From positions 2,413 to 66,412 of IMG/VR virus record IMGVR_UViG_3300045973_001103: DNA of 64,000 bases, one strand, 5' to 3'. A program made the position numbers and the translations under genes. Below, piece by piece: positions 2,238-33,334 of the stretch. Numbering within the stretch: position 1 is the stretch's first letter; the number at the start of each line of letters is the position of its first letter. The notes beneath the pieces were generated by a model. That model did no database searches, was not told the origin of the DNA, and was given only the letters and a program-made list of their open reading frames with translations. Source of the stretch: a virus.

Positions 2238-2542
2238 CTGTCAGGGTCCTTCAGCATATTCGCCGGCTTCCGCGCCGGGCGCCAGTACTCCCGGTCCTTC
2301 ACCCAGATATTCCCGGTGATGAACACCACGGTCTGCAGGCCCCAGCGCAGCCCGGTCGGCGGCCCGACCATCTGGTGGCAGTTGTACTGGATCCACTCCC
2401 CGCCGCAAAATTTTCTATACCACTGCCGGTGCGCCAGCATGCGGTCGAGGATAACCATGTACCAAACCCGCTTGTACCCGCTACAGGGCGGCCCGGCGCA
2501 GTAGTCCAGCTTCTCGCAGCCGCGACACCAGTGGAAGCTCAT
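2234..2542 (-). CDS. hypothetical protein, paralog of 1899..2237; ends NMLKDPDR
   Basis: CRGC...C motif, WYRxxxGGxWI motif, ATGA overlaps. Confidence 0.7.
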   Translation of the reverse strand: MSFHWCRGCEKLDYCAGPPCSGYKRVWYMVILDRMLAHRQWYRKFCGGEWIQYNCHQMVGPPTGLRWGLQTVVFITGNIWVKDREYWRPARKPANMLKDPDR

Positions 2543-2823
2543 CGGTCAGGGTCCTGTAGCTTGTCGACATACGCCTGGGCCGGCTTCAGCTTATCCACCC
2601 ACTGGTCCATGAACGTCCGCGCGCAGGTGTTGGAGAAATCATGCAGCTGATCCCGCGTCAGGCTCTTGGGCACCCAGGAGCGGTTTCGGCACTCGTCGAA
2701 GATGATCATGCCGATGCTGGCCTGGTAACTCCAGTACCAGGACCCCGGCCGCTTATCCCGGCGGAGCTGCCAGCGGACCCAGCTGACGGCCCAGTACGTG
2801 ATGTTGCCTATGATCCATTTCAT
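2539..2823 (-). CDS. hypothetical protein; ends DKLQDPDR
   Basis: ATGA overlaps at both ends. Confidence 0.7.
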   Translation of the reverse strand: MKWIIGNITYWAVSWVRWQLRRDKRPGSWYWSYQASIGMIIFDECRNRSWVPKSLTRDQLHDFSNTCARTFMDQWVDKLKPAQAYVDKLQDPDR

Positions 2824-2969
2824 CTGTCCGGACCCCAGAGCATGTTGTACTGCGGCCGCCGCAAAATTTGCTCAACGCCCCACAGCTGCTTGACGCAGTA
2901 AATCACCACGCCAGTCCCGCCAACTGCGAAGAAGATCGCTTCCGTCAAATTAGGTACAGGGCTCATCAT
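2820..2969 (-). CDS. 49-aa putative membrane peptide; ends NMLWGPDR
   Basis: Hand-translated MMSPVPNLTEAIFFAVGGTGVVIYCVKQLWGVEQILRRPQYNMLWGPDR; fills the gap exactly with ATGA overlaps on both sides; below ORF-track length cutoff. Confidence 0.65.
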   Translation of the reverse strand: MMSPVPNLTEAIFFAVGGTGVVIYCVKQLWGVEQILRRPQYNMLWGPDR

Positions 2970-3181
2970 TCCTGGTCCCGCTCTTCCGCAGGCACCGTCA
3001 GGTCCAGGGGCGGGCCCACGATCCAGTTCTTACATCCGGCCGGGATGAGCGTGAGCGGAACCACCCGCGCTTTTTCTTCGAGGCCTTTTGAGATCCACCA
3101 GCCGCACGCGGTTGGGAACACGTCCGTACCGGCGGGGCGATTATGGAAGCAGGTCCAGCAGCAGGGGTGTGTATCGCTCAT
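2966..3181 (-). CDS. small Cys-rich hypothetical protein
   Basis: CCWTC...C...C; ATGA overlap. Confidence 0.65.
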   Translation of the reverse strand: MSDTHPCCWTCFHNRPAGTDVFPTACGWWISKGLEEKARVVPLTLIPAGCKNWIVGPPLDLTVPAEERDQE

Positions 3182-4032
3182 CTGTCAGGGTCCCGCAGCT
3201 TGTTGGGGCGGTGGTCTGCCACGCGCATGTGCGCTTTCATCTTGGGCGGCCGGCACCACATGTTCTGGAACTTCTTCCAGGCTTTATCGTACTCCACCGG
3301 TGGGTCGGACTTATACAGCTGTGCGAAGGGCAGGCAGCCGGCGCGGTACAGGGCCTGAAGACGGTTCTCCTCCTCGACCACGTTCTTGCCTATGATCACG
3401 TAGCAGCGGATCTTCCACCGGGGAAAGCCGAATGCGGCCAGGCGCTGAATAGCCACCGCGGTGGTCGTGTAGTCTGCCGGCCGGTCGCAGGCCAGCCAGA
3501 TCTCAGCTATACGCTTGCGGATCTTGGCCAGGTCGGCTACCCTGGACTGGGTGAGGCGGCGCGACTCTATCCCGCCCCGCAGGCATATCTGCCGCTGGGT
3601 CGCCAGCATCGCCATGACCTTACCCCAGTGCTTATCGGACGCCGCCATCAGGTTGTTGTCCTGGATGACGTTGCCCGGCACGATCTCGGGCAGCTCCCGG
3701 AACTTACCCTCAATGCGCGGGACGAAGCAGTAGGAGCAGGCGTTGGGGCAGCCACGGGAAGTGAACACGATCCCGGGGCGCATGTACCGGCCGGGAATGA
3801 AATCGTCCGCGGCCGACAGGAATGCTGGTCCCCCGATCTTCACCACCTGGGCGCGGGTCAGCCAAGCCTTGGCCAATTCATGGGCGCGGTCCCGGTCCCA
3901 GGTGAAAGTGCACGATACATGAACCTCGTCGTAGAACGGGGTGGCCGGGGTGGGCTTATCGAAGTAGGCGTGCTCATCAGTGGGGCAGTAGGAAGTCTTG
4001 CGCGCGAAAACCCGGGCGAGAGGTGTGGGCAT
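3178..4032 (-). CDS. radical SAM protein
   Basis: TSRGCPNACSYC (CxxxCxxC 4Fe-4S motif); start placed at ATG 4032 because the TTG at 4068 is the -35 box of a consensus promoter; ends NKLRDPDR. Confidence 0.85.
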   Translation of the reverse strand: MPTPLARVFARKTSYCPTDEHAYFDKPTPATPFYDEVHVSCTFTWDRDRAHELAKAWLTRAQVVKIGGPAFLSAADDFIPGRYMRPGIVFTSRGCPNACSYCFVPRIEGKFRELPEIVPGNVIQDNNLMAASDKHWGKVMAMLATQRQICLRGGIESRRLTQSRVADLAKIRKRIAEIWLACDRPADYTTTAVAIQRLAAFGFPRWKIRCYVIIGKNVVEEENRLQALYRAGCLPFAQLYKSDPPVEYDKAWKKFQNMWCRPPKMKAHMRVADHRPNKLRDPDR

Positions 4033-4039
4033 GTCGACC

Positions 4040-4068
4040 ATTGTATCAAACTGGGCCGGGTCTGTCAA
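4040..4068 (-). promoter_or_regulatory. sigma70-type promoter for the leftward operon (probably leaderless transcript)
   Basis: TTGACA-17 nt-TACAAT on minus strand; ATG 4032 follows the -10 box after 7 intervening nt. Confidence 0.8.
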
Positions 4069-4089
4069 GCGAGGCCATGTGTCAGTTCA

Positions 4090-4112
4090 TATCAATTTGT
4101 GTGAAATTGATA
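4090..4112. promoter_or_regulatory. operator-like palindrome
   Basis: TATCAATTT-GTGTG-AAATTGATA, perfect 9-bp inverted repeat about 20 nt upstream of the -35 box. Confidence 0.5.
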
Positions 4113-4426
4113 CATCAACCTGGGCCGGCAAGCCCGGGGCATGTACTAATTGGTACTAATTTCCCCCAAATTAGTAGGTGGGCCGGGCATAGGTATTTCC
4201 CAGTTCAACTACAGAATATGCGTTAAACTATAGCAAAATGGATAGATAAACACTAATTTTGCTTGATTTCCGTCAAAAAGGGCCGGAATCTAGCGGAAAA
4301 GGGCCTAATAGGGCCCGGGGCAGCGCAAGGCCCGGAAGGCCGGGGATCGGACCAAACCGCTGGTGGCGGGCCGCCAGGACCACCCTATCGGTCCAAAAAC
4401 AGGCTCCAACCTGGGAAATCGGGCGG

Positions 4427-4676
4427 CACGGAACCACACTTCCGTGTGTTTGAGGGAATGGACAAGGGTGTGAGCCCGAGTCCTGACCTGTATTTCAACC
4501 CCGGATCGGTCTGCTGCCAGCGGCGCTCCGGCTGTTCTCCCCAAGCCGCTGGCAGCTGGCCTCTGGGTGCCATAGGCACTCACATACTTCACTAATTAAC
4601 AACCATGCTCTTAGAAAAGAGAATGGAGCTGCATGGTTGTAAATTAAAGAACTAAAGCCTGTAGGGCTTTAGTTCT
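4427..4676. other. cluster of inverted repeats (candidate structured RNA or origin)
   Basis: Stems 4427-4446 (7 bp), 4513-4556 (12 bp), 4565-4581, 4593-4646 (16 bp, 1 mismatch), 4648-4676 (12 bp). Confidence 0.55.
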
Positions 4677-4787
4677 GGAAGAGGGGAGGGGATGCACAAA
4701 TATTTTCACGCTGGTGCACGAAGATACTCCTCTACTGATGTACATAATAGTGAAACAAAAAAATTTCGCGACAGCGCGCTTCGCGCA

Positions 4788-5126
4788 TTAAAGCGAGGGA
4801 ATATGGGAGATCTGGGAAGGCCAGGCAACTGTCAGCAGCCGGGTTCGGCAATGCGCGCAAAGATAGAGAGGCTTCTCCGCCTTCTGCAGCGCCAGGCCCA
4901 GCTTCGGATGTGGGACCAGGTCGAGCGTGATCATGGTGATGCGCAGGTGGCCGCGGCGCTTCGTCGCCATGTAGAATTTGAAGTCGTTCAGGCGGGCCGT
5001 GAGCACCTTAAACGTCGCGAGGTGCATATGTATCAGCATGTGCCGGCAGCCCCACACCCCGTCATGTATACCAGAAGCCTCGGAGTAGATCGGGATGATT
5101 ATGCGTTTTTGCGATAGCTGTGTCAT
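4788..5126 (-). CDS. hypothetical protein (uncertain)
   Basis: 112-aa ORF just downstream of the leftward promoter at 5166-5194; weak SD; competing + strand ORF. Confidence 0.35.
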   Translation of the reverse strand: MTQLSQKRIIIPIYSEASGIHDGVWGCRHMLIHMHLATFKVLTARLNDFKFYMATKRRGHLRITMITLDLVPHPKLGLALQKAEKPLYLCAHCRTRLLTVAWPSQISHIPSL

Positions 5127-5165
5127 GCTCGTATGGGTAAATTGTCACGATTTTGTAACCCCGAT

Positions 5166-5194
5166 ATGATACCAGCGCGGAACAGTAAAGTCAA
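5166..5194 (-). promoter_or_regulatory. sigma70-type promoter (leftward)
   Basis: TTGACT-17 nt-TATCAT on minus strand. Confidence 0.65.
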
Positions 5195-5209
5195 GACCCC
5201 AGAATTTTG

Positions 5210-5238
5210 TTGACTTTTACGAAACCATTTGATAAAAT
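5210..5238 (+). promoter_or_regulatory. sigma70-type promoter for the rightward early arm
   Basis: TTGACT-17 nt-TAAAAT, followed by GGAGG SD and ATG 5263. Confidence 0.8.
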
Positions 5239-5262
5239 AATCCGCGAAAGAACGGAGGACCT

Positions 5263-5460
5263 ATGGAAGAAACTATCACCAAGTGCGATGCGTGCGGTCA
5301 AGTCATTGGCGGTCGCCGAAAGAAAGTCCGCGTCGTAGATTCGGTTCAGTACTTCTTCCTTCACCAGTGGGTCAAGCTGGACATCTGTCACGAATGCTGG
5401 ATCGGGCTGAAGGCGGTAGCTGCCTCCATCACCCTGGCCAACAAGGCGCGCGGAATTTAA
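5263..5460 (+). CDS. small zinc-ribbon protein
   Basis: CDAC...CHEC; GGAGG SD. Confidence 0.75.
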   Translation: MEETITKCDACGQVIGGRRKKVRVVDSVQYFFLHQWVKLDICHECWIGLKAVAASITLANKARGI

Positions 5461-5468
5461 AGGACAAC

Positions 5469-5762
5469 ATGGCAACTCAAAAATCAGTGAAATCCCTTCA
5501 AGCCGAGATCTCCAAGCTCAACAAGATCATCCACACCCTCAACCAGAAATACACCTTCAAGTACGAAAAGAACCGGCCGATCATGATCGTCCAGATCGGT
5601 GACGCGGCGACCGGCTGGATCGGTGACCCCGAGTCGGTGGCCTTCCTCATCCGTGAGCTGAAGCAGGCGCGCGTCGATGACACGCACAACATCGTCATCT
5701 ACCACTACGCCGCCAAGTTCACGATCGTGCCGGCCTCCGGGCTGCGCAGGACCTTCCCGTGA
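5469..5762 (+). CDS. coiled-coil + portal-clip-like domain protein (paralog of 6284..6673)
   Basis: Start MATQKS at 5469 after AAGGA SD; IMIVQIGD...W...RVDDTHNIVIYH aligns with the 6284 product and the portal segment. Confidence 0.7.
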   Translation: MATQKSVKSLQAEISKLNKIIHTLNQKYTFKYEKNRPIMIVQIGDAATGWIGDPESVAFLIRELKQARVDDTHNIVIYHYAAKFTIVPASGLRRTFP

Positions 5763-6271
5763 GCTACTTCCCCTCCCTCAACTTCATGCAGCTGGGGTTC
5801 TTCGGCAAGAAGGCCCAGGCCGCGGCCGGCGGCGCCCCGGACAATCCGAACGGCTACGCCAACATCAAGCGCTTCTTCGGCTTCAAGACCAAGCCGCTCC
5901 AGGAGCCCACAGAGCTGTTCAATGTCGGCTCCCGCGGCGGTGAGAAGCCTATGCTGCTGCCGGTGAAGCCGCCACCTCCCCCGCCCCGGTGGAAGTGCCA
6001 GTTCAAGGCGGACCTGGAGATGCGCGACAACCGAAACTGCCAGGTCATTATCACTCGCGACTGGGCCAAAGACCAGGACCGCATGACCCAGGAAGAACTC
6101 GAGAAGAAGTACGGGGCGGACTTCAGGCGGTGGTGCGCCACGCTGAAGCGGGAGATCAAGACCAAGAGATTTCATGACAGCGACCGCGCGCTCATCCGCA
6201 CCGCGGATGTCAGCTACGTTTTGTTCAGCATACGGCAGTGGGTGGATGACACCGACGCCGGACCTCGGTAA
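5759..6271 (+). CDS. hypothetical protein
   Basis: GTGA overlap, 170 aa. Confidence 0.7.
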   Translation: MSYFPSLNFMQLGFFGKKAQAAAGGAPDNPNGYANIKRFFGFKTKPLQEPTELFNVGSRGGEKPMLLPVKPPPPPPRWKCQFKADLEMRDNRNCQVIITRDWAKDQDRMTQEELEKKYGADFRRWCATLKREIKTKRFHDSDRALIRTADVSYVLFSIRQWVDDTDAGPR

Positions 6272-6283
6272 GGAGAACTGAAA

Positions 6284-6673
6284 ATGCCCCAGAACATAAT
6301 ATTGGCCAAACTGCGCAAAGACATAGCGGTACGTGATCAGATGATCCGCGCCCGTGACTCATGGGTCAAGGACCGTGACAAGCACATCGCCAACCTGAAT
6401 AAAGGCCTGGCCGAGCAGGCACAGACCGTTATCAAGCTGCGCGCGGACCTGGAGCGCCGGGATAAGGTCATTGAGGCCTACCAGATCAAGAACGAGTTCA
6501 TCTCCAAAGCTGGGCGTGAAACCATGATCGTGAAGGTCGGCTCTGTCGAGCACAAGTGGATGCCGAGCCCTGCGCAGTTCGCCGCGATAACCAAGCGGAT
6601 CAAGAACTCCAAGATCGATGAGAAATACAACATCCTGCTGACCCACGCATTCACCGAGGCGCACATACTTTAA
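6284..6673 (+). CDS. coiled-coil + portal-clip-like domain protein
   Basis: AAGGAG SD; C-terminal 46 aa share 18 identities with portal residues encoded at 37866-38000. Confidence 0.8.
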   Translation: MPQNIILAKLRKDIAVRDQMIRARDSWVKDRDKHIANLNKGLAEQAQTVIKLRADLERRDKVIEAYQIKNEFISKAGRETMIVKVGSVEHKWMPSPAQFAAITKRIKNSKIDEKYNILLTHAFTEAHIL

Positions 6674-7527
6674 TGGCCATCGCGCGCGACTACCAGCCGG
6701 AGTATCAGCCGCCCATTAAGAAGGCGAAGGCGGTCACCAACGGGTGGACCCACGGCGGGCTCATCACGGATCTCTGTGAGAACGTGAACGGCACGGACTA
6801 CATCTGCGGCGAGGTGTACGCCGGCAGCCGCTTCCTGGAGCGCCGGCCGTGCCCTGACGCGCTGCGCGTGCGCATGTCCTACTCCCGGCCGGACTTCGCC
6901 ATCTACGAAATCAAGGTGTCCAGGCCTGACTTCTTGTCGGATCTCCGTTCGGACAAGTGGCAGACCTACCTCCCTTACTGCTCCCGCTTCTACTTCGCCA
7001 CCCCTGAGAAAGGGGTCGCCACGATTGAGGATATCCCTTTCGTAGCCGGCTGGATGGTCCGCGGCGAAAAGGGCTGGCGCACGATCAAGACGCCCAAGGT
7101 GCGGCAGTTTGAGCCGGACTTCCACTACGCCCTGGCCCTGCTCATCAGCGAGCAGAAGTACCGGGTGCGGGCCGAGAACCTGGCGGCAGCCAACCGCAAG
7201 ATGGCACATGGCCATAACGTCAGCTGGAGCAAGAAGGTTATTGATCGCGTGCGCGTCACCGAAGAGGCCATCAAGAATAACTGGGAGTCGCGCAAGAAGA
7301 TCATGTCGGCCAAGGCTGCCATCAAACGGCACTTCGGCATCGACGTGGGTGAATACTGGCGCTTCAACGACATGGATTCCATCTTCAAGGACATGAAGAT
7401 GGGGCTCGACGCGGCCGACGTAACCCAGATGCGTGCGAACCTAAAGATGCTCTCGGGGATTCTTGACCGCGTGGCCGGGAAGGAGAAGGCTCCCGAGACC
7501 ATCGATTGGAACGCCAAGAAGGAATAA
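6673..7527 (+). CDS. MmcB-like PD-(D/E)xK nuclease family protein
   Basis: PDAL...YEIKVSRPDFLSD...KWQTYLPYCSRFYFATP. Confidence 0.75.
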   Translation: MAIARDYQPEYQPPIKKAKAVTNGWTHGGLITDLCENVNGTDYICGEVYAGSRFLERRPCPDALRVRMSYSRPDFAIYEIKVSRPDFLSDLRSDKWQTYLPYCSRFYFATPEKGVATIEDIPFVAGWMVRGEKGWRTIKTPKVRQFEPDFHYALALLISEQKYRVRAENLAAANRKMAHGHNVSWSKKVIDRVRVTEEAIKNNWESRKKIMSAKAAIKRHFGIDVGEYWRFNDMDSIFKDMKMGLDAADVTQMRANLKMLSGILDRVAGKEKAPETIDWNAKKE

Positions 7528-7958
7528 TGGATACCAGCAAAGTTTACATCGAGATGTGCACCGCGGCCTATGAGCTCCAGGACGCTTGGGTTCCTCTGCC
7601 CTGGGACTATATCTTCTGCCGCGTGGAGCATTCTGTCACCTGCCTGCTGCCGGCCTCACCCGCCCAGGTGCGCAACACCCATTGGCTTGACGGCACGGTC
7701 CTGCGCAATGCCGAGTGCTGCGGCTCCAAGCGAGAGCACGTGTGGCTGCCGCGGCAGGACCAGATCCCGGCGATGATGCACACACAGAAGCACAGGACCT
7801 CCACCTTCCTGCTGCGCTTCGCTAAATTCTCCTGCTACAAGCCGCATGCGTCCATCGAGCAACTTTACGTGCGATACTGGATGGCACGCCACTCCAAGAA
7901 GACCTGGGTCCGCGGCGAGTGGAAGCACAGCCTCAAAGAAAAATATGGACAAAGGTAA
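7527..7958 (+). CDS. hypothetical protein, paralog of 7945..8325
   Basis: MDTSKVYIEMC...HVWLPRQDQ...SIEQL; TAATG overlap. Confidence 0.75.
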   Translation: MDTSKVYIEMCTAAYELQDAWVPLPWDYIFCRVEHSVTCLLPASPAQVRNTHWLDGTVLRNAECCGSKREHVWLPRQDQIPAMMHTQKHRTSTFLLRFAKFSCYKPHASIEQLYVRYWMARHSKKTWVRGEWKHSLKEKYGQR

Positions 7959-8325
7959 GCAGTACATCTATATGTGCGCCCGGGCCCGCACATTCCGCAA
8001 GACCTGGATGCCTGCGCTTGGTGACTTCTATTACGACAAGGTCACCCAGGGCGTAGGTGTGGTCTACAAGCTCCCGTTCGATCGCACAGATCACGTGTGG
8101 TTGCCGCGCGCGGATCAGCTGCTAGATCTCCTGGCCGCGCGCTATAACGTGGCGTTCAAGCCGGCGTACACCCTCAACAAGTTTCACCAGTACATCATGG
8201 CCAGCACGCCCCGGTATTCCGGATCCATTGAGCAGATGCTGCTGCAGTTCATGATGCTCGAGGTTTACCAGAAAGTGTTCTTGAGTCAGAACTGGGTGGC
8301 CAGCGCCCCGTCGATAGAATTGTGA
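7945..8325 (+). CDS. hypothetical protein, paralog of 7527..7958
   Basis: MDKGKQYIYMC...HVWLPRADQ...SIEQM. Confidence 0.75.
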   Translation: MDKGKQYIYMCARARTFRKTWMPALGDFYYDKVTQGVGVVYKLPFDRTDHVWLPRADQLLDLLAARYNVAFKPAYTLNKFHQYIMASTPRYSGSIEQMLLQFMMLEVYQKVFLSQNWVASAPSIEL

Positions 8326-8339
8326 TATAAGGAGTTGCT

Positions 8340-9131
8340 ATGCTTGAAGCCCTGATGTGCGGTGACGTGATGGAGCAGCTGAAATTAATCCCTGACAATT
8401 CAGTAGATTTGATTGTGACCAGCCCTCCATACAACGTCGGAATCAAGTACGACAACTACGACGACGCGCGCACCTGGGACAACTATTACTGCTGGTGCGG
8501 CGCCTGGCTCGGACAGCTGCTTCGGGTCATGAAGCCCGACGGTCGCTGCTGCATCAATATGTACTTAAGTTTAGGTACATCTAAATTCCGGACCGCACCC
8601 CTCATGACAATAAACCAGTGGGCCGTGGCCCAGGGATTCAAGCACCACTCCATGGCACTGTGGTATGACGTCACCTTGACCAAGCTCACCGCGTGGGGCA
8701 GCTGGCTGTCCGCCTCGGCGCCCTACGTCTCCGCGCCCTTCGAGGGCATCCTGATCCTGTACAAGGACCAGTGGAAGAAACAGAACAAGGGCGTGTCCAC
8801 CACAACCAAAGAGGAGTTCCGTGAGTTCGCCTGCGGGGTGTGGAAGTTCGCTCCCAATCGCCGCAGTGACCACCCGGCTCCGTTCCCCGAGAAGCTGGCC
8901 GCCAGGTGTATCAACGGCCTGTCCTACGTCGGAGATACCGTCCTGGACCCCTTCCTGGGCACCGGAACGACCGCAATAGCCGCTAAAAAGGCCTCCAGGG
9001 GCTATATTGGCATCGATATAAGCCCAGATTACATCGAAAAGGCCAAAGTTAAGCTGGCCGCTGTGGTCGTGCCGCCTCCGGTTCCCTCCCCTAAAAAGGC
9101 ACCAAAACTGGCCCCTGAAGCCGAAAAATGA
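8340..9131 (+). CDS. DNA amino-methyltransferase (N4C/N6A, beta class)
   Basis: TSPPY catalytic motif precedes HPAPFP and VLDPFLGTGTT SAM-binding motif. Confidence 0.92.
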   Translation: MLEALMCGDVMEQLKLIPDNSVDLIVTSPPYNVGIKYDNYDDARTWDNYYCWCGAWLGQLLRVMKPDGRCCINMYLSLGTSKFRTAPLMTINQWAVAQGFKHHSMALWYDVTLTKLTAWGSWLSASAPYVSAPFEGILILYKDQWKKQNKGVSTTTKEEFREFACGVWKFAPNRRSDHPAPFPEKLAARCINGLSYVGDTVLDPFLGTGTTAIAAKKASRGYIGIDISPDYIEKAKVKLAAVVVPPPVPSPKKAPKLAPEAEK

Positions 9132-10717: not shown

Positions 10718-11041
10718 ATGGGAATAACAGCGCAGGACTTAATGGCCTTCGTTTCCGCACGGGAACGTCTGCTGAAAATCATACACCGAGAAATCGGCAG
10801 CTGTAACTTTGGTAAAGGTTACGAGGGTATTGTTTCAATAACTTTCCCCTCTTGTCTCGACGAGCATTTTGGAGACCACTCCTGTATTGTATCGCTCGAG
10901 GCAGCCAGGCAGTTTACGCGTAATAATGTGTGGTCCGGGGTCAGCTTATCCGCCGTCGTAGATAAGATGAACAAGGACATTGACCTGTATGAAAAAAATC
11001 TTACTCGACACACCGATCAACCCGATAACCACGGGTCTTGA
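10718..11041 (+). CDS. hypothetical protein
   Basis: 107-aa ORF with purine-rich SD. Confidence 0.5.
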   Translation: MGITAQDLMAFVSARERLLKIIHREIGSCNFGKGYEGIVSITFPSCLDEHFGDHSCIVSLEAARQFTRNNVWSGVSLSAVVDKMNKDIDLYEKNLTRHTDQPDNHGS

Positions 11042-12497
11042 TAAAATAGCTCCGCTTTTGCTTACGTCCTTCGGTCCGGACAAGGGCACCATTTTCTGTG
11101 GAGGTAAAACTGTGAGCCTATACTCCGGTCTGTTAACTCTCATCAAGCACGACGATCCTTTTGAGAACATAGCCATCAAGCTCGTGGAGGACATGGCCGC
11201 TGACGTGTACGCCAAGGCCGGCTCCGGGGTCAGCCTGGCTGCTGTGCTTACCGTGGGGCTTGTCCGGGCCTCCCGGCAGCTTATAGTCGCAGGCTACCAC
11301 CCGCGGCGCGTCCACGACTGGCTGGAGACCATTGGCGCTGACTTTGCTACCCACCTGCAGGGTGAGGTTGATGCGGTTAAGAGCTGGGGCCTGCCGGGGC
11401 AGGAAGAGCAGATCATGAAAGCGGTGGCTATCACCGCGGCCAAGGATGAGAAGGTAGGGGCGCTCATCGGCGACATGTGCTACCAGATCGGACAGTTCGC
11501 CCACATCGACATAGTCCAGGATGACATCCCCCAGGTCCGCGTAGAGTACCGCAATGGTTTCACCTTCAAGACAGCGCCGCTGTCTTATCACTTCCTCAAA
11601 GGCAAGCGCAAGGAGTTTGCCAGCCCCAAGATCATATTCACTGACGGTGCCTTCGACGACGTTTCATCCATGGTCAAGATCCTCATGGCTGCTAACAAGG
11701 CCGAAGTGCCGCTGATCGTTATGGCCAACAGCTTGAGCCAGGACGTCATGTCACTGCTTACGCACAATCATAATATCGGCGCGTTAGACATCATTGCTAT
11801 CAAAGCACCCTCATTCAGCTTCGGGCAATTCCAGGCGCTGGAGGACCTGGCGATGATCACCGGCGGGATTCCCGTCAGCTACGCCATGAGCTCCAAGCCC
11901 ACTGTGGAGCACCTGGGCACAGCTCCCCGCGTGGTGGTGGGTCAGGATTACTGTACGATATACTCCACCAATCCTGTGCCGGAAGAGTACATCAAGCGCA
12001 TCAAGCGGCAGACCGCCAAGGTGCGCAGTGACGTTCTGAAGATGGCCGTCAATGAGCGCGTCAGCAATCTGCTCGGGAAGGCCGCTGTGCTGCGCGTGGG
12101 CGGCTACACAGAGCGTGAGCGGCAGGAAGGTTACCAGAAGGTAGAGACCGCGGTGCACGCCGTCCGGGGCGCCCAGAGCGAAGGGTACATCCCCGGCGGC
12201 TACCAGGTATTCCGCAAGTTCCCTTTCCGCGCAAACCCAGACATTCCTACGCCGTTGTATACTGGCATGCAGTTCCCGTATACTGCCCTTATGGCTAACT
12301 ATACTGGCGACGTGCCTTCACTAAACCGGATCACCAATAACCCGGTGGAGCTGTTCAACGTCAGGACCGGCAAGATCGAGAACATGCTTGATGCCGGAGT
12401 AATCGACTCGGTGAAGTCCATCCGCGTCGCCGTGGAATCCGCCATCTCTACAGCTAAGATCTTGGCGATCACCGGCGCCATAGTCACGGAGGCATGA
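10989..12497 (+). CDS. GroEL-like chaperonin with degenerate ATPase motifs
   Basis: TSFGPDKG, AIKAPSFSFGQFQALEDLAMITGG, ERVSNLLGKAAVLRVGG, AGVIDSVKSIRVAVESA match the GroEL scaffold; GDGTTT replaced by GSGVSL. Confidence 0.85.
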   Translation: MKKILLDTPINPITTGLDKIAPLLLTSFGPDKGTIFCGGKTVSLYSGLLTLIKHDDPFENIAIKLVEDMAADVYAKAGSGVSLAAVLTVGLVRASRQLIVAGYHPRRVHDWLETIGADFATHLQGEVDAVKSWGLPGQEEQIMKAVAITAAKDEKVGALIGDMCYQIGQFAHIDIVQDDIPQVRVEYRNGFTFKTAPLSYHFLKGKRKEFASPKIIFTDGAFDDVSSMVKILMAANKAEVPLIVMANSLSQDVMSLLTHNHNIGALDIIAIKAPSFSFGQFQALEDLAMITGGIPVSYAMSSKPTVEHLGTAPRVVVGQDYCTIYSTNPVPEEYIKRIKRQTAKVRSDVLKMAVNERVSNLLGKAAVLRVGGYTERERQEGYQKVETAVHAVRGAQSEGYIPGGYQVFRKFPFRANPDIPTPLYTGMQFPYTALMANYTGDVPSLNRITNNPVELFNVRTGKIENMLDAGVIDSVKSIRVAVESAISTAKILAITGAIVTEA

Positions 12498-31053: not shown

Positions 31054-31526
31054 AAATCCTAAACGGGTATAGCGACCTGGCGCCTGCCTTCAAAAGCAAG
31101 GAAGAGTGCGTCATAAAGGGCATAGACTGGGCTACCCGGTTCGTGCGCCCGTTCCGTTGCCATGTTGTCCAGGTGCCTGCGTGCCTGGTCCAGCGCATAT
31201 GCACCACCACGTACAGCAGCATCGCCCTGCCGCAGCACAAATTTCTGGTTAATTCCCTGCCGCAGCACCCGTTCTCATCAGTCCCTTTGACCAGCCTGCT
31301 GCGTGTTCCGCTCGGGCAGCTCCAGCCGCAGTTCGTGGTAGCTGTGGCACCAATCGCTGAGGTTTCCAACAACCCGTATTACCCAAATTCAGGCATTATA
31401 TCCGATCACGTGATCACTTTCTCCCGCATCACCAACGTCAACTACGTGGACGTCAACCCAGTGTACGACGTTGTTCTCGACGAAGGTGACACTTACATCC
31501 TAAATAACACGGTGCGTGTACTATGA
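31050..31526 (+). CDS. stand-alone degenerate Hint (intein-like) domain protein
   Basis: PQHKFL (block B-like) and FSRITNV...VYDVVLDEGDTYILN (block F-like); no Cys1 or terminal HN. Confidence 0.6.
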   Translation: MKILNGYSDLAPAFKSKEECVIKGIDWATRFVRPFRCHVVQVPACLVQRICTTTYSSIALPQHKFLVNSLPQHPFSSVPLTSLLRVPLGQLQPQFVVAVAPIAEVSNNPYYPNSGIISDHVITFSRITNVNYVDVNPVYDVVLDEGDTYILNNTVRVL

Positions 31527-33334
31527 GCCTGCGCAACGCCGTAATTAAGGCCAAGCGCTTCAGCTTGTCACAGTTCGTGCACGATGAGACGATAGACAGC
31601 GCCATTAAGTTCGTCACCGAGCAGATGAACCAGGTGACCACTGACGTAGAGTTTATCGAGCAGCCGGTCGGATTCAGGGAATTTGTCGAATCGAAGGACC
31701 ATATGGACTTCCCGCCGCTCTCCGAGCGGCAGTACATGGTGTTCGACTTCATGATCGGCGACGACCCACAAACCGCATTCAGCAATGGTAACTCCCTCGC
31801 TATCCTCGCCTGGGGTAAAGGGTCCGGAAAAGACACATTGTGCGTGCTGATCCTGTGTTACGTCTGCTACCTGTGCCTCTGCATGAAGTCGCCACAGGTC
31901 TACTTCAAGCAGCCCGAAGGCGAGTGTCTGGACTGCGTGAACATCGCCCCGTCAGGCGCCAAGGCTAACGAGGTATTCTTCGAAAAGCTGCGTCAGCGCG
32001 TGCTCCGGTGGCGCTGGCTCAAAGACAAGTACCCGATCCGGAACTCTGGTGCGTTCATCAGCCAGGTCAAGCCCGACGCTGGTGAGCCCTACGTCACCAT
32101 CACGAAGGACGGTATCATTTTCCCGAAGCTGATCCGTCTTCTTTCCAAGAACTCTGACAATGAGAGCGCCGAAGGTCTCAATACGCTCGTGTACGTTCTC
32201 GACGAAGCGTCCGCCTTCCAGGGCACCAACAAGGCACGCAACGCCTCCAAGATTTACCGTAACGTAAAGTCCTCTAGCACCACCCGGTTCGGTATGCGCG
32301 GCAAGGGTTTCATCATTTCCTATCCGCGCGAGATAGAAGACTTCACCATGCAGATGTACCGGGCGAACTTGAAGAACCTCCACGTATACACCGACAAGGC
32401 CGCAACCTGGGAAGTGAAGCCGCTACACCTGTTCAGCGGCCAGTGGTTCGACTTTGAGGACGGAACCATCGACGTGGTGGTGGACGGGGTAATGAAGAAA
32501 GTACCCAACATCATCCGGGTTCCTCTCGAGTTCAAAGACGAGTTTGATACCAACCCCACCGATGCCAAAATGATGCTCATGGCCGATCCTCCGGAAACGG
32601 AGCACGGTTTCATCGAGTACCCGGAGAAGGTGACGGAGTGCATAGATCCGTCTTCCCGGCCGGTCGTAAACGTTGAGGACTACGTGGGAGATCCTGGCGG
32701 CAAAAACCGTAGCGGACCGAAGGTCTGTAAGCGCATCACCAGCTTCAACAGCAACATCGTCAGCCCTCACGACCACATTATCACGATCGACCTTGGCCGC
32801 AGCACCGACAAGGCCGCGCTGTCTATGTTCCACCGAGAAGTTATAGCCGGCCAGCCCATTTTCGTGCAGGATCTAGTGACTGGATGGCTTCCGGATCGCA
32901 AGAACAAGTACATGGTCTCGTTCACCAATGTGCGCGAGTTCATTCAGCAGCTGGCGGCCCGGTACAGCATCATGGGAGTGTGGTTCGACCAGTGGCAGAG
33001 CGCATCGTTGCAGGAGGAACTTAACGCCGCGTCCATCCCCTCGTTCGAATATAACCTTGACCTGGCCGACTACAAGACTTTCAAGGAAATGATTTACACC
33101 AAGCGGTACAAGCTGCTCCCTTTCGCCCCGCAGATCCTGGAGATCAAGCAGCTTATCTCCCTGGGGCACCGTGTAGACCACCCGTCCACCGGCAGCAAGG
33201 ACTACGTCGACACCATTGTCGGCGCCACCAAGGTGTGGTTGCTTAAGCACAAGGCCACCAACGAGGAAGACGGCTGGGGAGAAGTGGAGACGATCGAGGA
33301 AAACCTCACGATGCAGGACCCGTGGGCAAACTAG
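31523..33334 (+). CDS. terL: terminase large subunit
   Basis: WGKGSGKD Walker A, VLDEA Walker B, ITIDLG, FDQWQS, DHP...SKDYVD nuclease motifs. Confidence 0.93.
   Translation: MSLRNAVIKAKRFSLSQFVHDETIDSAIKFVTEQMNQVTTDVEFIEQPVGFREFVESKDHMDFPPLSERQYMVFDFMIGDDPQTAFSNGNSLAILAWGKGSGKDTLCVLILCYVCYLCLCMKSPQVYFKQPEGECLDCVNIAPSGAKANEVFFEKLRQRVLRWRWLKDKYPIRNSGAFISQVKPDAGEPYVTITKDGIIFPKLIRLLSKNSDNESAEGLNTLVYVLDEASAFQGTNKARNASKIYRNVKSSSTTRFGMRGKGFIISYPREIEDFTMQMYRANLKNLHVYTDKAATWEVKPLHLFSGQWFDFEDGTIDVVVDGVMKKVPNIIRVPLEFKDEFDTNPTDAKMMLMADPPETEHGFIEYPEKVTECIDPSSRPVVNVEDYVGDPGGKNRSGPKVCKRITSFNSNIVSPHDHIITIDLGRSTDKAALSMFHREVIAGQPIFVQDLVTGWLPDRKNKYMVSFTNVREFIQQLAARYSIMGVWFDQWQSASLQEELNAASIPSFEYNLDLADYKTFKEMIYTKRYKLLPFAPQILEIKQLISLGHRVDHPSTGSKDYVDTIVGATKVWLLKHKATNEEDGWGEVETIEENLTMQDPWAN

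What the first reader, a model, noticed from the sequence alone, without database searches (positions are those of the whole stretch)
5469..6673. Two early genes encode free-standing copies of the phage's own portal clip-like segment
Seen: the C-terminus of 6284..6673 (TMIVKVGSVEHKWMPSPAQF...KIDEKYNILLTHAFTE) aligns with the portal segment at 37866-38000 (MKIWKIGSKEQKWLPSKKHF...KGDPDYD-LIYHAFLE), 18/46 identities with one gap by hand count. The 5469..5762 product is a more diverged paralog (IMIVQIGD...W...RVDDTHNIVIYH). Both have an N-terminal coiled coil and lie near the start of the operon under the sigma70 promoter, 30 kb from the portal. Established: the segment between the two portal stem helices is the clip, where terminase and adaptors dock, and Avs4 STAND defence NTPases sense phage portal proteins. 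Inference: these are portal mimics, acting as early decoys against portal-sensing immunity, as packaging timers, or as inhibitors of competing phages.
Basis: partly seen in the sequence, partly recalled or inferred. Interest (0 to 1): 0.85.

Follow-up and report, generated by a model that had tools for sequence, protein, structure and literature searches.

The report
Free-standing portal-clip proteins in a phage
Two small genes at the start of this uncultured phage's early gene block encode stand-alone relatives of the clip, the part of the portal protein that joins portal subunits and docks the DNA-packaging motor; they belong to an undescribed protein family of unknown function.

Summary
P0002 (6284-6673, 129 aa) matches the phage's portal (36996-38792) at BLASTP E 9e-9, and 0 of 1000 shuffles reach its score. 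P0001 (5469-5762, 97 aa) is its paralogue (E 3e-12). A profile of 56 small relatives matches a 47-portal profile at 98.6% probability, E 7.6e-16. The portal profile hits both small proteins, and only at clip positions.

In the AF2 portal model, which Foldseek matches to solved portals, the segment lies between the two stem helices, so it is the clip. P0002 folds as a long heptad-repeat helix followed by strand-helix-strand and ends where the clip ends.

They are not recent copies of this phage's portal. They belong to an old, separate family of 52 small representatives with no Pfam, PHROG or NCBIfam model and no match in GenBank phages. One tree branch separates the family from the portals. 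Small copies occur in 4 of 10 records carrying this portal family, so the genes are accessory. They are under purifying selection.

Function is untested. My leading reading is clip-to-clip pairing with portal subunits (0.38). Rivals are a decoy for portal-sensing immunity (0.25) and a terminase or adaptor mimic (0.15). The scan's index held no look-alike on other DNA.

The parts
5142..5238 (+). Two sigma-70-like promoter matches (TTGTCA-17-TATGAT at 5142-5170; TTGACT-17-TAAAAT with TG at 5210-5238) ahead of the rightward gene block
   Evidence: Consensus matches only: 8 found in 2500-8500, against 2.6 +/- 1.8 in shuffles.
5263..5460 (+). First gene of the block: 65-aa protein with two Cys pairs (CDAC...CHEC). 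Conserved in the related phage G002. No family match.
   Evidence: GGAGG before the ATG
5469..5762 (+). P0001, 97 aa, the 'A-type' clip-like protein: a short heptad helix, then the clip module, with a diverged loop (GWIG instead of GWIP, and no HF)
   Evidence: family profile E 1.0e-31; portal profile E 2.9e-5; dN/dS 0.21 against the G002 orthologue
5759..6271 (+). 170-aa protein of unknown function between the two clip-like genes. The same order is kept in G002. No Pfam, PHROG or NCBIfam match.
6284..6673 (+). P0002, 129 aa, the 'B-type' clip-like protein: helix 2-69 with a heptad repeat, then strand 80-85, helix 96-108 and strand 116-121. It ends where the portal clip ends.
   Evidence: pLDDT 95.3; E 9.3e-33; E 3.3e-7; dN/dS 0.37
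36996..38792 (+). Portal protein P0003, 598 aa
   Evidence: phrog_16240 portal, E 2.7e-43; AF2 model, pLDDT 71.9; Foldseek: solved portals, best E 5.8e-12
37866..38012 (+). Clip of the portal (residues 291-339: strand, loop, helix, two strands), between stem helices 262-288 and 348-362. This is the segment homologous to the small proteins.
   Evidence: The clip definition comes from SPP1 gp6 (PMC9701221).

Best explanation
Shown: P0001 and P0002 are real, selected genes. Each encodes a free-standing homologue of the portal clip, which is the strand-loop-helix-strand-strand module between the two portal stem helices. The module is carried on an N-terminal heptad-repeat helix. They belong to an old family of small proteins with no existing model, so far seen only in uncultured phages with this portal family, and they are dispensable within that group. 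Inferred: they act through the contacts that a clip normally makes, and the best-established partner of a clip is another clip. In SPP1 gp6 the clip is a three-stranded sheet whose middle strand comes from the neighbouring subunit, and it makes the most extensive bonds between subunits. I therefore propose that these proteins pair clip-to-clip, with themselves and with newly made portal subunits. Made before the portal, they would cap the ring-forming edge of portal monomers. That could hold monomers back from off-pathway rings or time ring assembly. As a side effect it could hide monomers from sensors that bind portal monomers. This works like the eukaryotic 'microProteins', small paralogues of an interaction domain that titrate the full-length protein. 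The binding step and its consequence are both untested.
For: Homology. Position in the clip.

P0002 keeps every element of the clip and stops at its end: strands at 80-85 and 116-121, helix 96-108, and the tail 122-129 aligned to the last portal strand.

In 12 of the 57 aligned columns that both P0002 and the portal fill, both families have the same majority residue at 60% or more. These cluster in K-x-G....G-W-I-P...H and D...N-I..H. That is the strand-to-helix loop and the loop before the second strand. In SPP1 these loops are held by hydrogen bonds within and between subunits (PMC9701221, passages).

The family goes with this portal family. All 4 records that hold a small copy also hold such a portal, and the small-family profile hits all 10 portals examined at E 1e-11 to 1e-17.

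There is a weak preference for the phage's own portal. P0002, its G002 orthologue and the single copies of G003 and G004 each score highest, or joint highest, with their own phage's portal among 8 portals.

The genes are selected and conserved in order: dN/dS 0.21 and 0.37, and the same gene order in G002.

The same early block carries a GroEL-like gene, so an early position does not exclude a role in assembly.
Against: No binding has been shown by any method.

The genes lie 30 kb from the portal, behind sigma-70-like sites and among small early-type genes. That position is more typical of host-takeover or counter-defence genes.

Six of 10 records with this portal family have no small copy, including G001, which is rated 100% complete. 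The role is therefore not essential for portal assembly.

The A-type proteins do not score best with their own portal, and they have changed the conserved loop.

The own-portal preference rests on three independent lineages and on score differences of a few points.

The residues shared by both families could be kept for folding alone.
Confidence: 0.38

Rival explanations
1. Counter-defence decoy. Made early, the free clip would occupy host sensors that recognise the portal (Avs4, Avs11 or others) without activating them, so the late portal goes unnoticed.
For: Position behind sigma-70-like sites at the head of the early block, next to a DNA methyltransferase, and among arrays of small genes in G003 and G004. 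Patchy, accessory distribution: small copies in 4 of 10 records. Two diverged paralogues in one phage. Several defence systems do sense portals: Avs4 and Avs11 (bioRxiv 10.64898/2026.01.04.697583, passages) and RAZR (PMC13017515, passages).
Against: No known sensor has been shown, in anything I could read, to recognise the clip alone. Avs sensors are described as wrapping around the core of their target over extended interfaces, and RAZR assembles around the circumference of the portal ring. A faithful clip mimic made early could trigger such a sensor sooner rather than block it. The host and its defences are unknown. The paper with the Avs4-portal structure (PMC10028730) is not held.
Confidence: 0.25
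2. Mimic aimed at the phage's own packaging partners. The free clip presents the docking loop to the large terminase or to the head-completion adaptor. It would hold them until procapsids are ready, or tune the hand-over between them.
For: The clip is where terminase and then the adaptor dock (PMC10359639, introduction passage). In SPP1 the strand-to-helix loop (Asn290, Gly293, Glu294) is needed for packaging and adaptor binding (PMC9701221, passages). The densest block of residues shared by both families is in the equivalent loop. TerL is encoded in the window at 31523-33334.
Against: In SPP1 the adaptor pocket is built from three neighbouring portal subunits and a stem hairpin, which a lone clip lacks. 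The gene is dispensable in related phages that keep the same portal family. The A-type has altered this very loop. No co-fold with TerL was run.
Confidence: 0.15
3. Weapon against related phages. The free clip would poison the portal rings or the packaging of co-infecting relatives that share this portal family, while the phage's own portal tolerates it.
For: Early expression and patchy distribution fit superinfection or competition genes. The family profile recognises the clips of all 10 portals examined, down to one only 24% identical to P0003.
Against: Where measured, the small proteins resemble their own portal at least as much as foreign ones, so self-poisoning would be expected. No resistance feature is evident in the phage's own portal.
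Confidence: 0.07
4. The clip fold has been reused for a job unrelated to portals or their partners, with the coiled coil as the working part, for example binding a host protein.
For: No functional data exist. The N-terminal region varies greatly in length and sequence across the family. The top, non-significant structural neighbours are V-ATPase stalk subunits, which also have a long helix and a small head.
Against: The conserved part of the family is the clip, not the helix. So far the family is found only alongside this portal family: 4 of 4 records.
Confidence: 0.12
5. Chance similarity, or decaying remnants of a portal duplication with no function.
For: P0001 against the portal is weak on its own (E 0.007; 10 of 1000 shuffles reach its score).
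Against: Profile against profile gives E 7.6e-16, and both reciprocal profile searches hit. 52 small representatives turn up among 1.84 billion proteins. dN/dS is 0.21 and 0.37, gene order is conserved, and both starts have Shine-Dalgarno sites.
Confidence: 0.02

Closest known systems
Clip domain of tailed-phage portal proteins (for example SPP1 gp6 residues 281-326; here the portal family phrog_16240)
   Same: Sequence homology: hhalign probability 98.6%, E 7.6e-16. The same order of strand, loop, helix and strands. 12 columns have the same majority residue in both families.
   Different: The small proteins have no wing, crown, second stem helix, tunnel loop or long alpha6 helix. They are 60-208 aa instead of about 600. 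They sit in early or accessory regions rather than the head module. One tree branch separates them from all 46 sampled portals.
MicroProteins: small paralogues of an interaction domain that titrate a larger protein (a eukaryotic concept, recalled, not from any call)
   Same: The architecture fits: a small protein made only of the oligomerisation module of a large multidomain protein encoded in the same genome.
   Different: No titration or binding has been shown here, and the concept has not, to my knowledge, been applied to phage structural proteins.
Phage mimic-type counter-defence proteins, such as the DNA mimic Ocr (recalled, not from any call)
   Same: An early, small, accessory protein that imitates a molecule recognised by other proteins.
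   Different: Those imitate DNA or bind signalling molecules. In my three literature searches I found no phage protein that imitates a piece of its own virion protein.
V-ATPase peripheral-stalk subunits (top Foldseek rows for the P0002 model)
   Same: Overall shape only: a long helix with a small alpha/beta head.
   Different: Not significant (best E 0.74, probability 0.21), with no sequence relation.

Membership tests
Portal protein (phrog_16240; portal fold) | Full wing-stem-clip-crown architecture in a chain of several hundred residues | tested here: not met
   P0001 is 97 aa and P0002 is 129 aa. The P0002 model is one long helix plus strand-helix-strand. The portal profile matches them only at positions 276-333 of 594. 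For comparison, P0003 meets this feature.
Portal protein (phrog_16240; portal fold) | Clip module between stem helices alpha3 and alpha5 (strand, loop, helix, two strands) | tested here: met
   Sequence homology to exactly this segment and matching order of secondary-structure elements. I could not superpose the two models in 3D because no coordinates were available.
Portal protein (phrog_16240; portal fold) | Second stem helix, tunnel loop and long alpha6 helix lining the DNA channel | tested here: not met
   P0002 ends at residue 129, which aligns with about portal residue 339, before helix 348-362.
New family of small clip-like proteins (no accession; alignment A3) | Small protein (60-208 aa) with the motif G-R-P-x-L-x-V-K-L-G....G-W-I-P...H-F ... 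D-K-x-Y-N-I-L-L-x-H-Y | tested here: met
   The family profile hits P0002 at E 9.3e-33 and P0001 at E 1.0e-31. Both were among the 5 seed sequences, so this is partly circular. The independent evidence is the 52 small representatives recovered from 1.84 billion proteins.
FlaG (PF03646) | Score above Pfam's gathering cut-off over the domain, shared by relatives | tested here: inconclusive
   P0001 scores 24.0 bits against a cut-off of 23.8, over residues 4-49 only. Only 2 of 56 family members match at E <= 0.01. I treat this as a marginal match to the helix and first strand, not as membership.
Counter-defence decoy against portal sensors (a functional class) | Binds a portal-sensing defence protein and blocks its activation | not testable with these tools
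   The host and its sensors are unknown, and no co-fold with a sensor was possible. Only context speaks to it: early position and patchy distribution.

The most novel reading that the evidence does not exclude
An old, diversified family of phage proteins consists of the portal's own clip cut free. Made early, it blinds host immune receptors that recognise portal protein, either as a non-activating decoy or by capping portal monomers. This would be the first counter-defence built by copying a piece of the very virion protein that immunity detects.
Probability: 0.25. Interest if true: 0.88.

Novelty: new variant of a known kind. Interest (0 to 1): 0.66.

Why it matters
The portal is found in every tailed phage, and its clip is where ring formation, motor docking and neck attachment all take place. 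A separate, selected, stand-alone clip family has not been described in anything I could search. Three full-text searches found nothing, and Pfam, PHROGs and NCBIfam have no model for it.

If these proteins pair with portal subunits, they are a natural tool for controlling portal assembly. If they engage terminase or adaptor, they isolate the minimal docking module, which has been hard to study. If they act on portal-sensing immunity, they would be a new counter-defence principle.

The proteins are small (97-129 aa) and fold with high predicted confidence, so each of these ideas can be tested with synthetic genes.

Tried and rejected
Co-folding: complex prediction with portal residues 85-520 (alignment A2) and P0002 (alignment A3) returned 'no answer' (score 0.00, mark 0.32). 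I do not count it for or against binding.

Structure searches with the P0002 model. Foldseek against the PDB gave no hit at E <= 0.001; the top rows were V-ATPase stalk subunits at E 0.74 or worse. Foldseek against BFVD gave no hit at E <= 0.001. The best row was a 135-aa protein of Haloarcula californiae tailed virus 2 at E 0.048, and four rows named 'Portal protein' lay at ranks 4, 8, 11 and 38 with E 0.43-3.4. These are leads only. The two VIA-align libraries were not on the machine. The ESM Atlas gave nothing usable. I could not superpose the two models because no coordinates were available in the script box.

Family searches. Pfam, PHROGs and NCBIfam have no model for the small family. 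I set aside the FlaG match of P0001 (24.0 against 23.8 bits; 2 of 56 members). The 893-aa hit P0129 is a tandem-repeat protein that matches 18 profile positions eight times, so I dropped it as spurious. It was left out of alignment A3 and out of the tree.

More genomes. IMG/VR scans with A1, A4, A6 and A7 returned the same four records. The metagenome scan gave three short contigs, L023-L025, which I did not examine further. GTDB genomes gave no small copy and two binned contigs with portals only. A tblastn search of GenBank phages with P0127 gave nothing.

Ideas rejected:
- A split second portal. The portal profile finds nothing else in the record.
- Recent gene conversion. DNA identity is 53.6% and the longest identical run is 7 nt.
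- A link to the inteins in portal homologues. The intein sits near residue 160, in the wing.
- A link to portal inhibition of RelA/SpoT. In T7 gp8, deleting the clip enhanced binding (bioRxiv 10.64898/2026.01.27.700999, abstract and section 8).

Papers not held: PMC10028730 and PMC6947915. Anything I remember about the Avs4-portal interface is unverified and is not used. Supplementary files were not opened.

Full report
WHAT IS THERE. The window is most of a 66,412-base IMG/VR virus record (G+C 57.6%). Genes run rightward from about 5.2 kb. Two sigma-70-like sites (5142-5170 and 5210-5238) are followed by these genes:
- a 65-aa protein with two Cys pairs (5263-5460);
- P0001 (5469-5762, 97 aa);
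- a 170-aa protein of unknown function (5759-6271);
- P0002 (6284-6673, 129 aa);
- an MmcB-like protein (6673-7527; PF06319 at 21.3 bits, just under the 22-bit cut-off, and phrog_5429);
- a DNA methyltransferase (8340-9131), a GroEL-like gene (10980-12497) and a DnaB-like helicase.

The head module lies 25-40 kb further on: TerL at 31523-33334, the portal at 36996-38792, the maturation protease at 39437-40849 and the major head protein at 42984-44075. The public gene call for P0002 starts at Met20 (P0004), but there is no ribosome-binding site at that position.

IS THE SIMILARITY REAL? Yes.
- P0002 against the portal: BLASTP 39.7 bits, E 9e-9, 29/93 identities, P0002 34-125 against portal 247-335.
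- Smith-Waterman score is 97, against 34.2 +/- 5.1 for 1000 shuffles, and none reaches it.
- P0001 against P0002: E 3e-12.
- P0001 against the portal is weak alone: E 0.007, and 10 of 1000 shuffles reach its score.
- A profile of five small proteins, searched against 1.84 billion representatives, found 53 proteins at E <= 0.001. Of these, 52 are small (60-208 aa) and one is a spurious repeat protein.
- The 56-row alignment of small proteins (A3) matches a 47-portal alignment (A2) at hhalign probability 98.6%, E 7.6e-16 over 65 columns, with P0002 69-129 aligned to portal 280-344.
- In reverse, the portal profile searched on the phage's own record hits the portal, P0002 (E 3.3e-7) and P0001 (E 2.9e-5), all at profile positions 276-333, and nothing else.

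IS IT THE CLIP? The portal has no Pfam match. It does match phrog_16240 'portal protein' at E 2.7e-43. Its AF2 model (pLDDT 71.9) matches solved portals by Foldseek, including HFTV1, T4, G20c, lambda and HK97, with E down to 5.8e-12. The model has helix 262-288, strand 291-296, helix 307-319, strands 327-329 and 334-339, helix 348-362 and then the long helix 377-413.

In SPP1 gp6 the clip (residues 281-326) is the part between helix alpha3 and helix alpha5. It consists of strand beta12, helix alpha4 and strand beta14 of one subunit plus beta13 from the neighbouring subunit (PMC9701221, passages). The homologous segment, portal residues 291-339, is therefore the clip.

The P0002 model (pLDDT 95.3, built with A3) has helix 2-69, strand 80-85, helix 96-108 and strand 116-121. 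The protein ends where the last clip strand ends. I could not superpose the two models directly, and Foldseek searches with the small model were not significant.

WHAT KIND OF THING IS IT? It is not a recent copy of this portal.
- On 57 clip columns, one branch (SH-aLRT 95) separates the 56 small proteins from the 46 portals.
- P0001 and P0002 lie in different deep subclades. This was a quick tree on few columns, so only the main split should be trusted.
- The DNA of the two clip segments is 53.6% identical, with no identical run above 7 nt.

The family has no Pfam, PHROG or NCBIfam model. A tblastn search with one member against 50,697 GenBank phages found nothing. The portal's nearest cultured relative is Bacillus phage G at 24.8% identity.

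The family motif is G-R-P-x-L-x-V-K-L-G....G-W-I-P...H-F...D-K-x-Y-N-I-L-L-x-H-Y. The portal family has F-P-I-K-I-x-K-x-G-S..K-G-W-I-P-S-K-K-H-F...D-P-D-F-N-I-I-x-H in the same place. In 12 of the 57 columns that both P0002 and the portal fill, both families have the same majority residue at 60% or more. These cluster in the strand-to-helix loop.

One member, P0123, is 49% identical to this portal's clip over 49 residues.

DISTRIBUTION AND SELECTION. I searched ten records or genomes carrying this portal family with the A3 profile.
- All ten portals are hit at the clip, at E 1e-11 to 1e-17.
- Small copies occur in four: G000 and G002 have two each, in the same gene order. G003 has one, in an array of small genes. 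G004 has one about 2 kb downstream of the portal, in a block of small genes followed by an HNH endonuclease, a regulator and a ligase.
- G001, rated 100% complete, has none.

Between G000 and G002, dN/dS is 0.21 for the A-type and 0.37 for the B-type. dS is near saturation, so these values are rough. The genes are therefore real, selected and accessory.

In a score matrix of 6 small proteins against 8 portals, the B-type and single-copy proteins score best, or joint best, with their own phage's portal in 4 of 4 cases. The two A-type proteins do not. This rests on three independent lineages and small margins, so it is only a hint of co-evolution.

HOW IT MIGHT WORK. What is shown ends at homology, architecture, selection and context.

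Established background from papers:
- The clip binds the large terminase and later the adaptor (PMC10359639, passage).
- In SPP1 the clip makes the most extensive bonds between subunits.
- The SPP1 strand-to-helix loop (Asn290, Gly293, Glu294) is needed for packaging and adaptor binding (PMC9701221, passages).
- Avs4 and Avs11 sense portals, and Avs2 and Avs4 recognise monomers of their targets (bioRxiv 10.64898/2026.01.04.697583 and 10.1101/2025.11.14.688446, passages).
- RAZR assembles around portal rings (PMC13017515, passages).

My leading inference (0.38) is clip-to-clip pairing. A free clip keeps all four elements and the loop residues, and its best-established partner is another clip. 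It would then self-associate, helped by the heptad helix, and cap newly made portal subunits.

The rivals are a non-activating decoy for portal sensors (0.25), a mimic that engages terminase or adaptor (0.15), reuse of the fold for another job (0.12), a weapon against related phages (0.07) and chance or decay (0.02). The early position and patchy distribution favour the decoy. The description of Avs sensors as enveloping the core of their target counts against a clip-only Avs decoy. The GroEL-like gene in the same early block shows that assembly helpers can sit there.

EARLIER NOTES OF THE SCAN. Eight notes exist for this window, and none concerns these genes. One (e1-6208746) contrasts early TTGAC-type promoters with a late motif in the virion arm. 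My promoter scan agrees on the early sites, and I did not test the late motif. A look-up by sequence found no look-alike elsewhere in the scan.

VERDICT. The mapping to the clip is confirmed by sequence profiles and secondary structure but not by 3D superposition. 'Own portal copies' should be corrected to 'an old, separate family of clip paralogues'. The function remains open.

Noticed in passing
window 7506-7958 and 7846-8325; L006 8444-8881 and 8865-9251: Two adjacent, overlapping genes of 150 and 159 aa look like paralogues of each other. They share HVWLPR-x-DQ and SIEQ motifs in the printed translations. The pair is kept in the related phage G002. No PHROG or Pfam match.
   Followed up: partly
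portal homologues P0011, P0012, P0013, P0026, P0063, P0086; insertion opposite window portal residue ~160: Six of the 81 portal homologues listed carry intein or LAGLIDADG Pfam domains. In P0012 the insert interrupts the portal after LLGE, near residue 160. That is in the wing, not the clip.
   Followed up: partly
window 4263-4600; L006 4837-5262: The stretch upstream of the early promoters has no credible gene, yet its long ORF translations resemble each other in the two phages (for example GPPGPPYR in both). The DNA is therefore conserved. Rfam finds nothing at gathering score.
   Followed up: no
window 10980-12497: A GroEL-like chaperonin gene (phrog_5725, E 1.3e-60) lies in the same rightward early block as the clip-like genes.
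   Followed up: no
window 5263-5460; L006 5922-6182: The first gene of the block encodes a small protein with two Cys pairs (CDAC...CHEC), conserved in G002. It may be a zinc ribbon. No family match.
   Followed up: no
BFVD rows: The closest, non-significant structural neighbours of the P0002 model include small uncharacterised proteins of haloarchaeal tailed viruses (135 and 117 aa) and of Burkholderia phage BcepSauron, plus a 125-aa entry named 'Portal protein'. These may be stand-alone clip-like proteins in other virus groups. I could not fetch their sequences.
   Followed up: no
L011 10318-10962 (G004): An HNH or homing-endonuclease-like gene (phrog_15427, E 1.5e-15) lies directly downstream of the clip-like gene in G004. 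That gene sits in a block of small ORFs between the portal and a DNA ligase.
   Followed up: no
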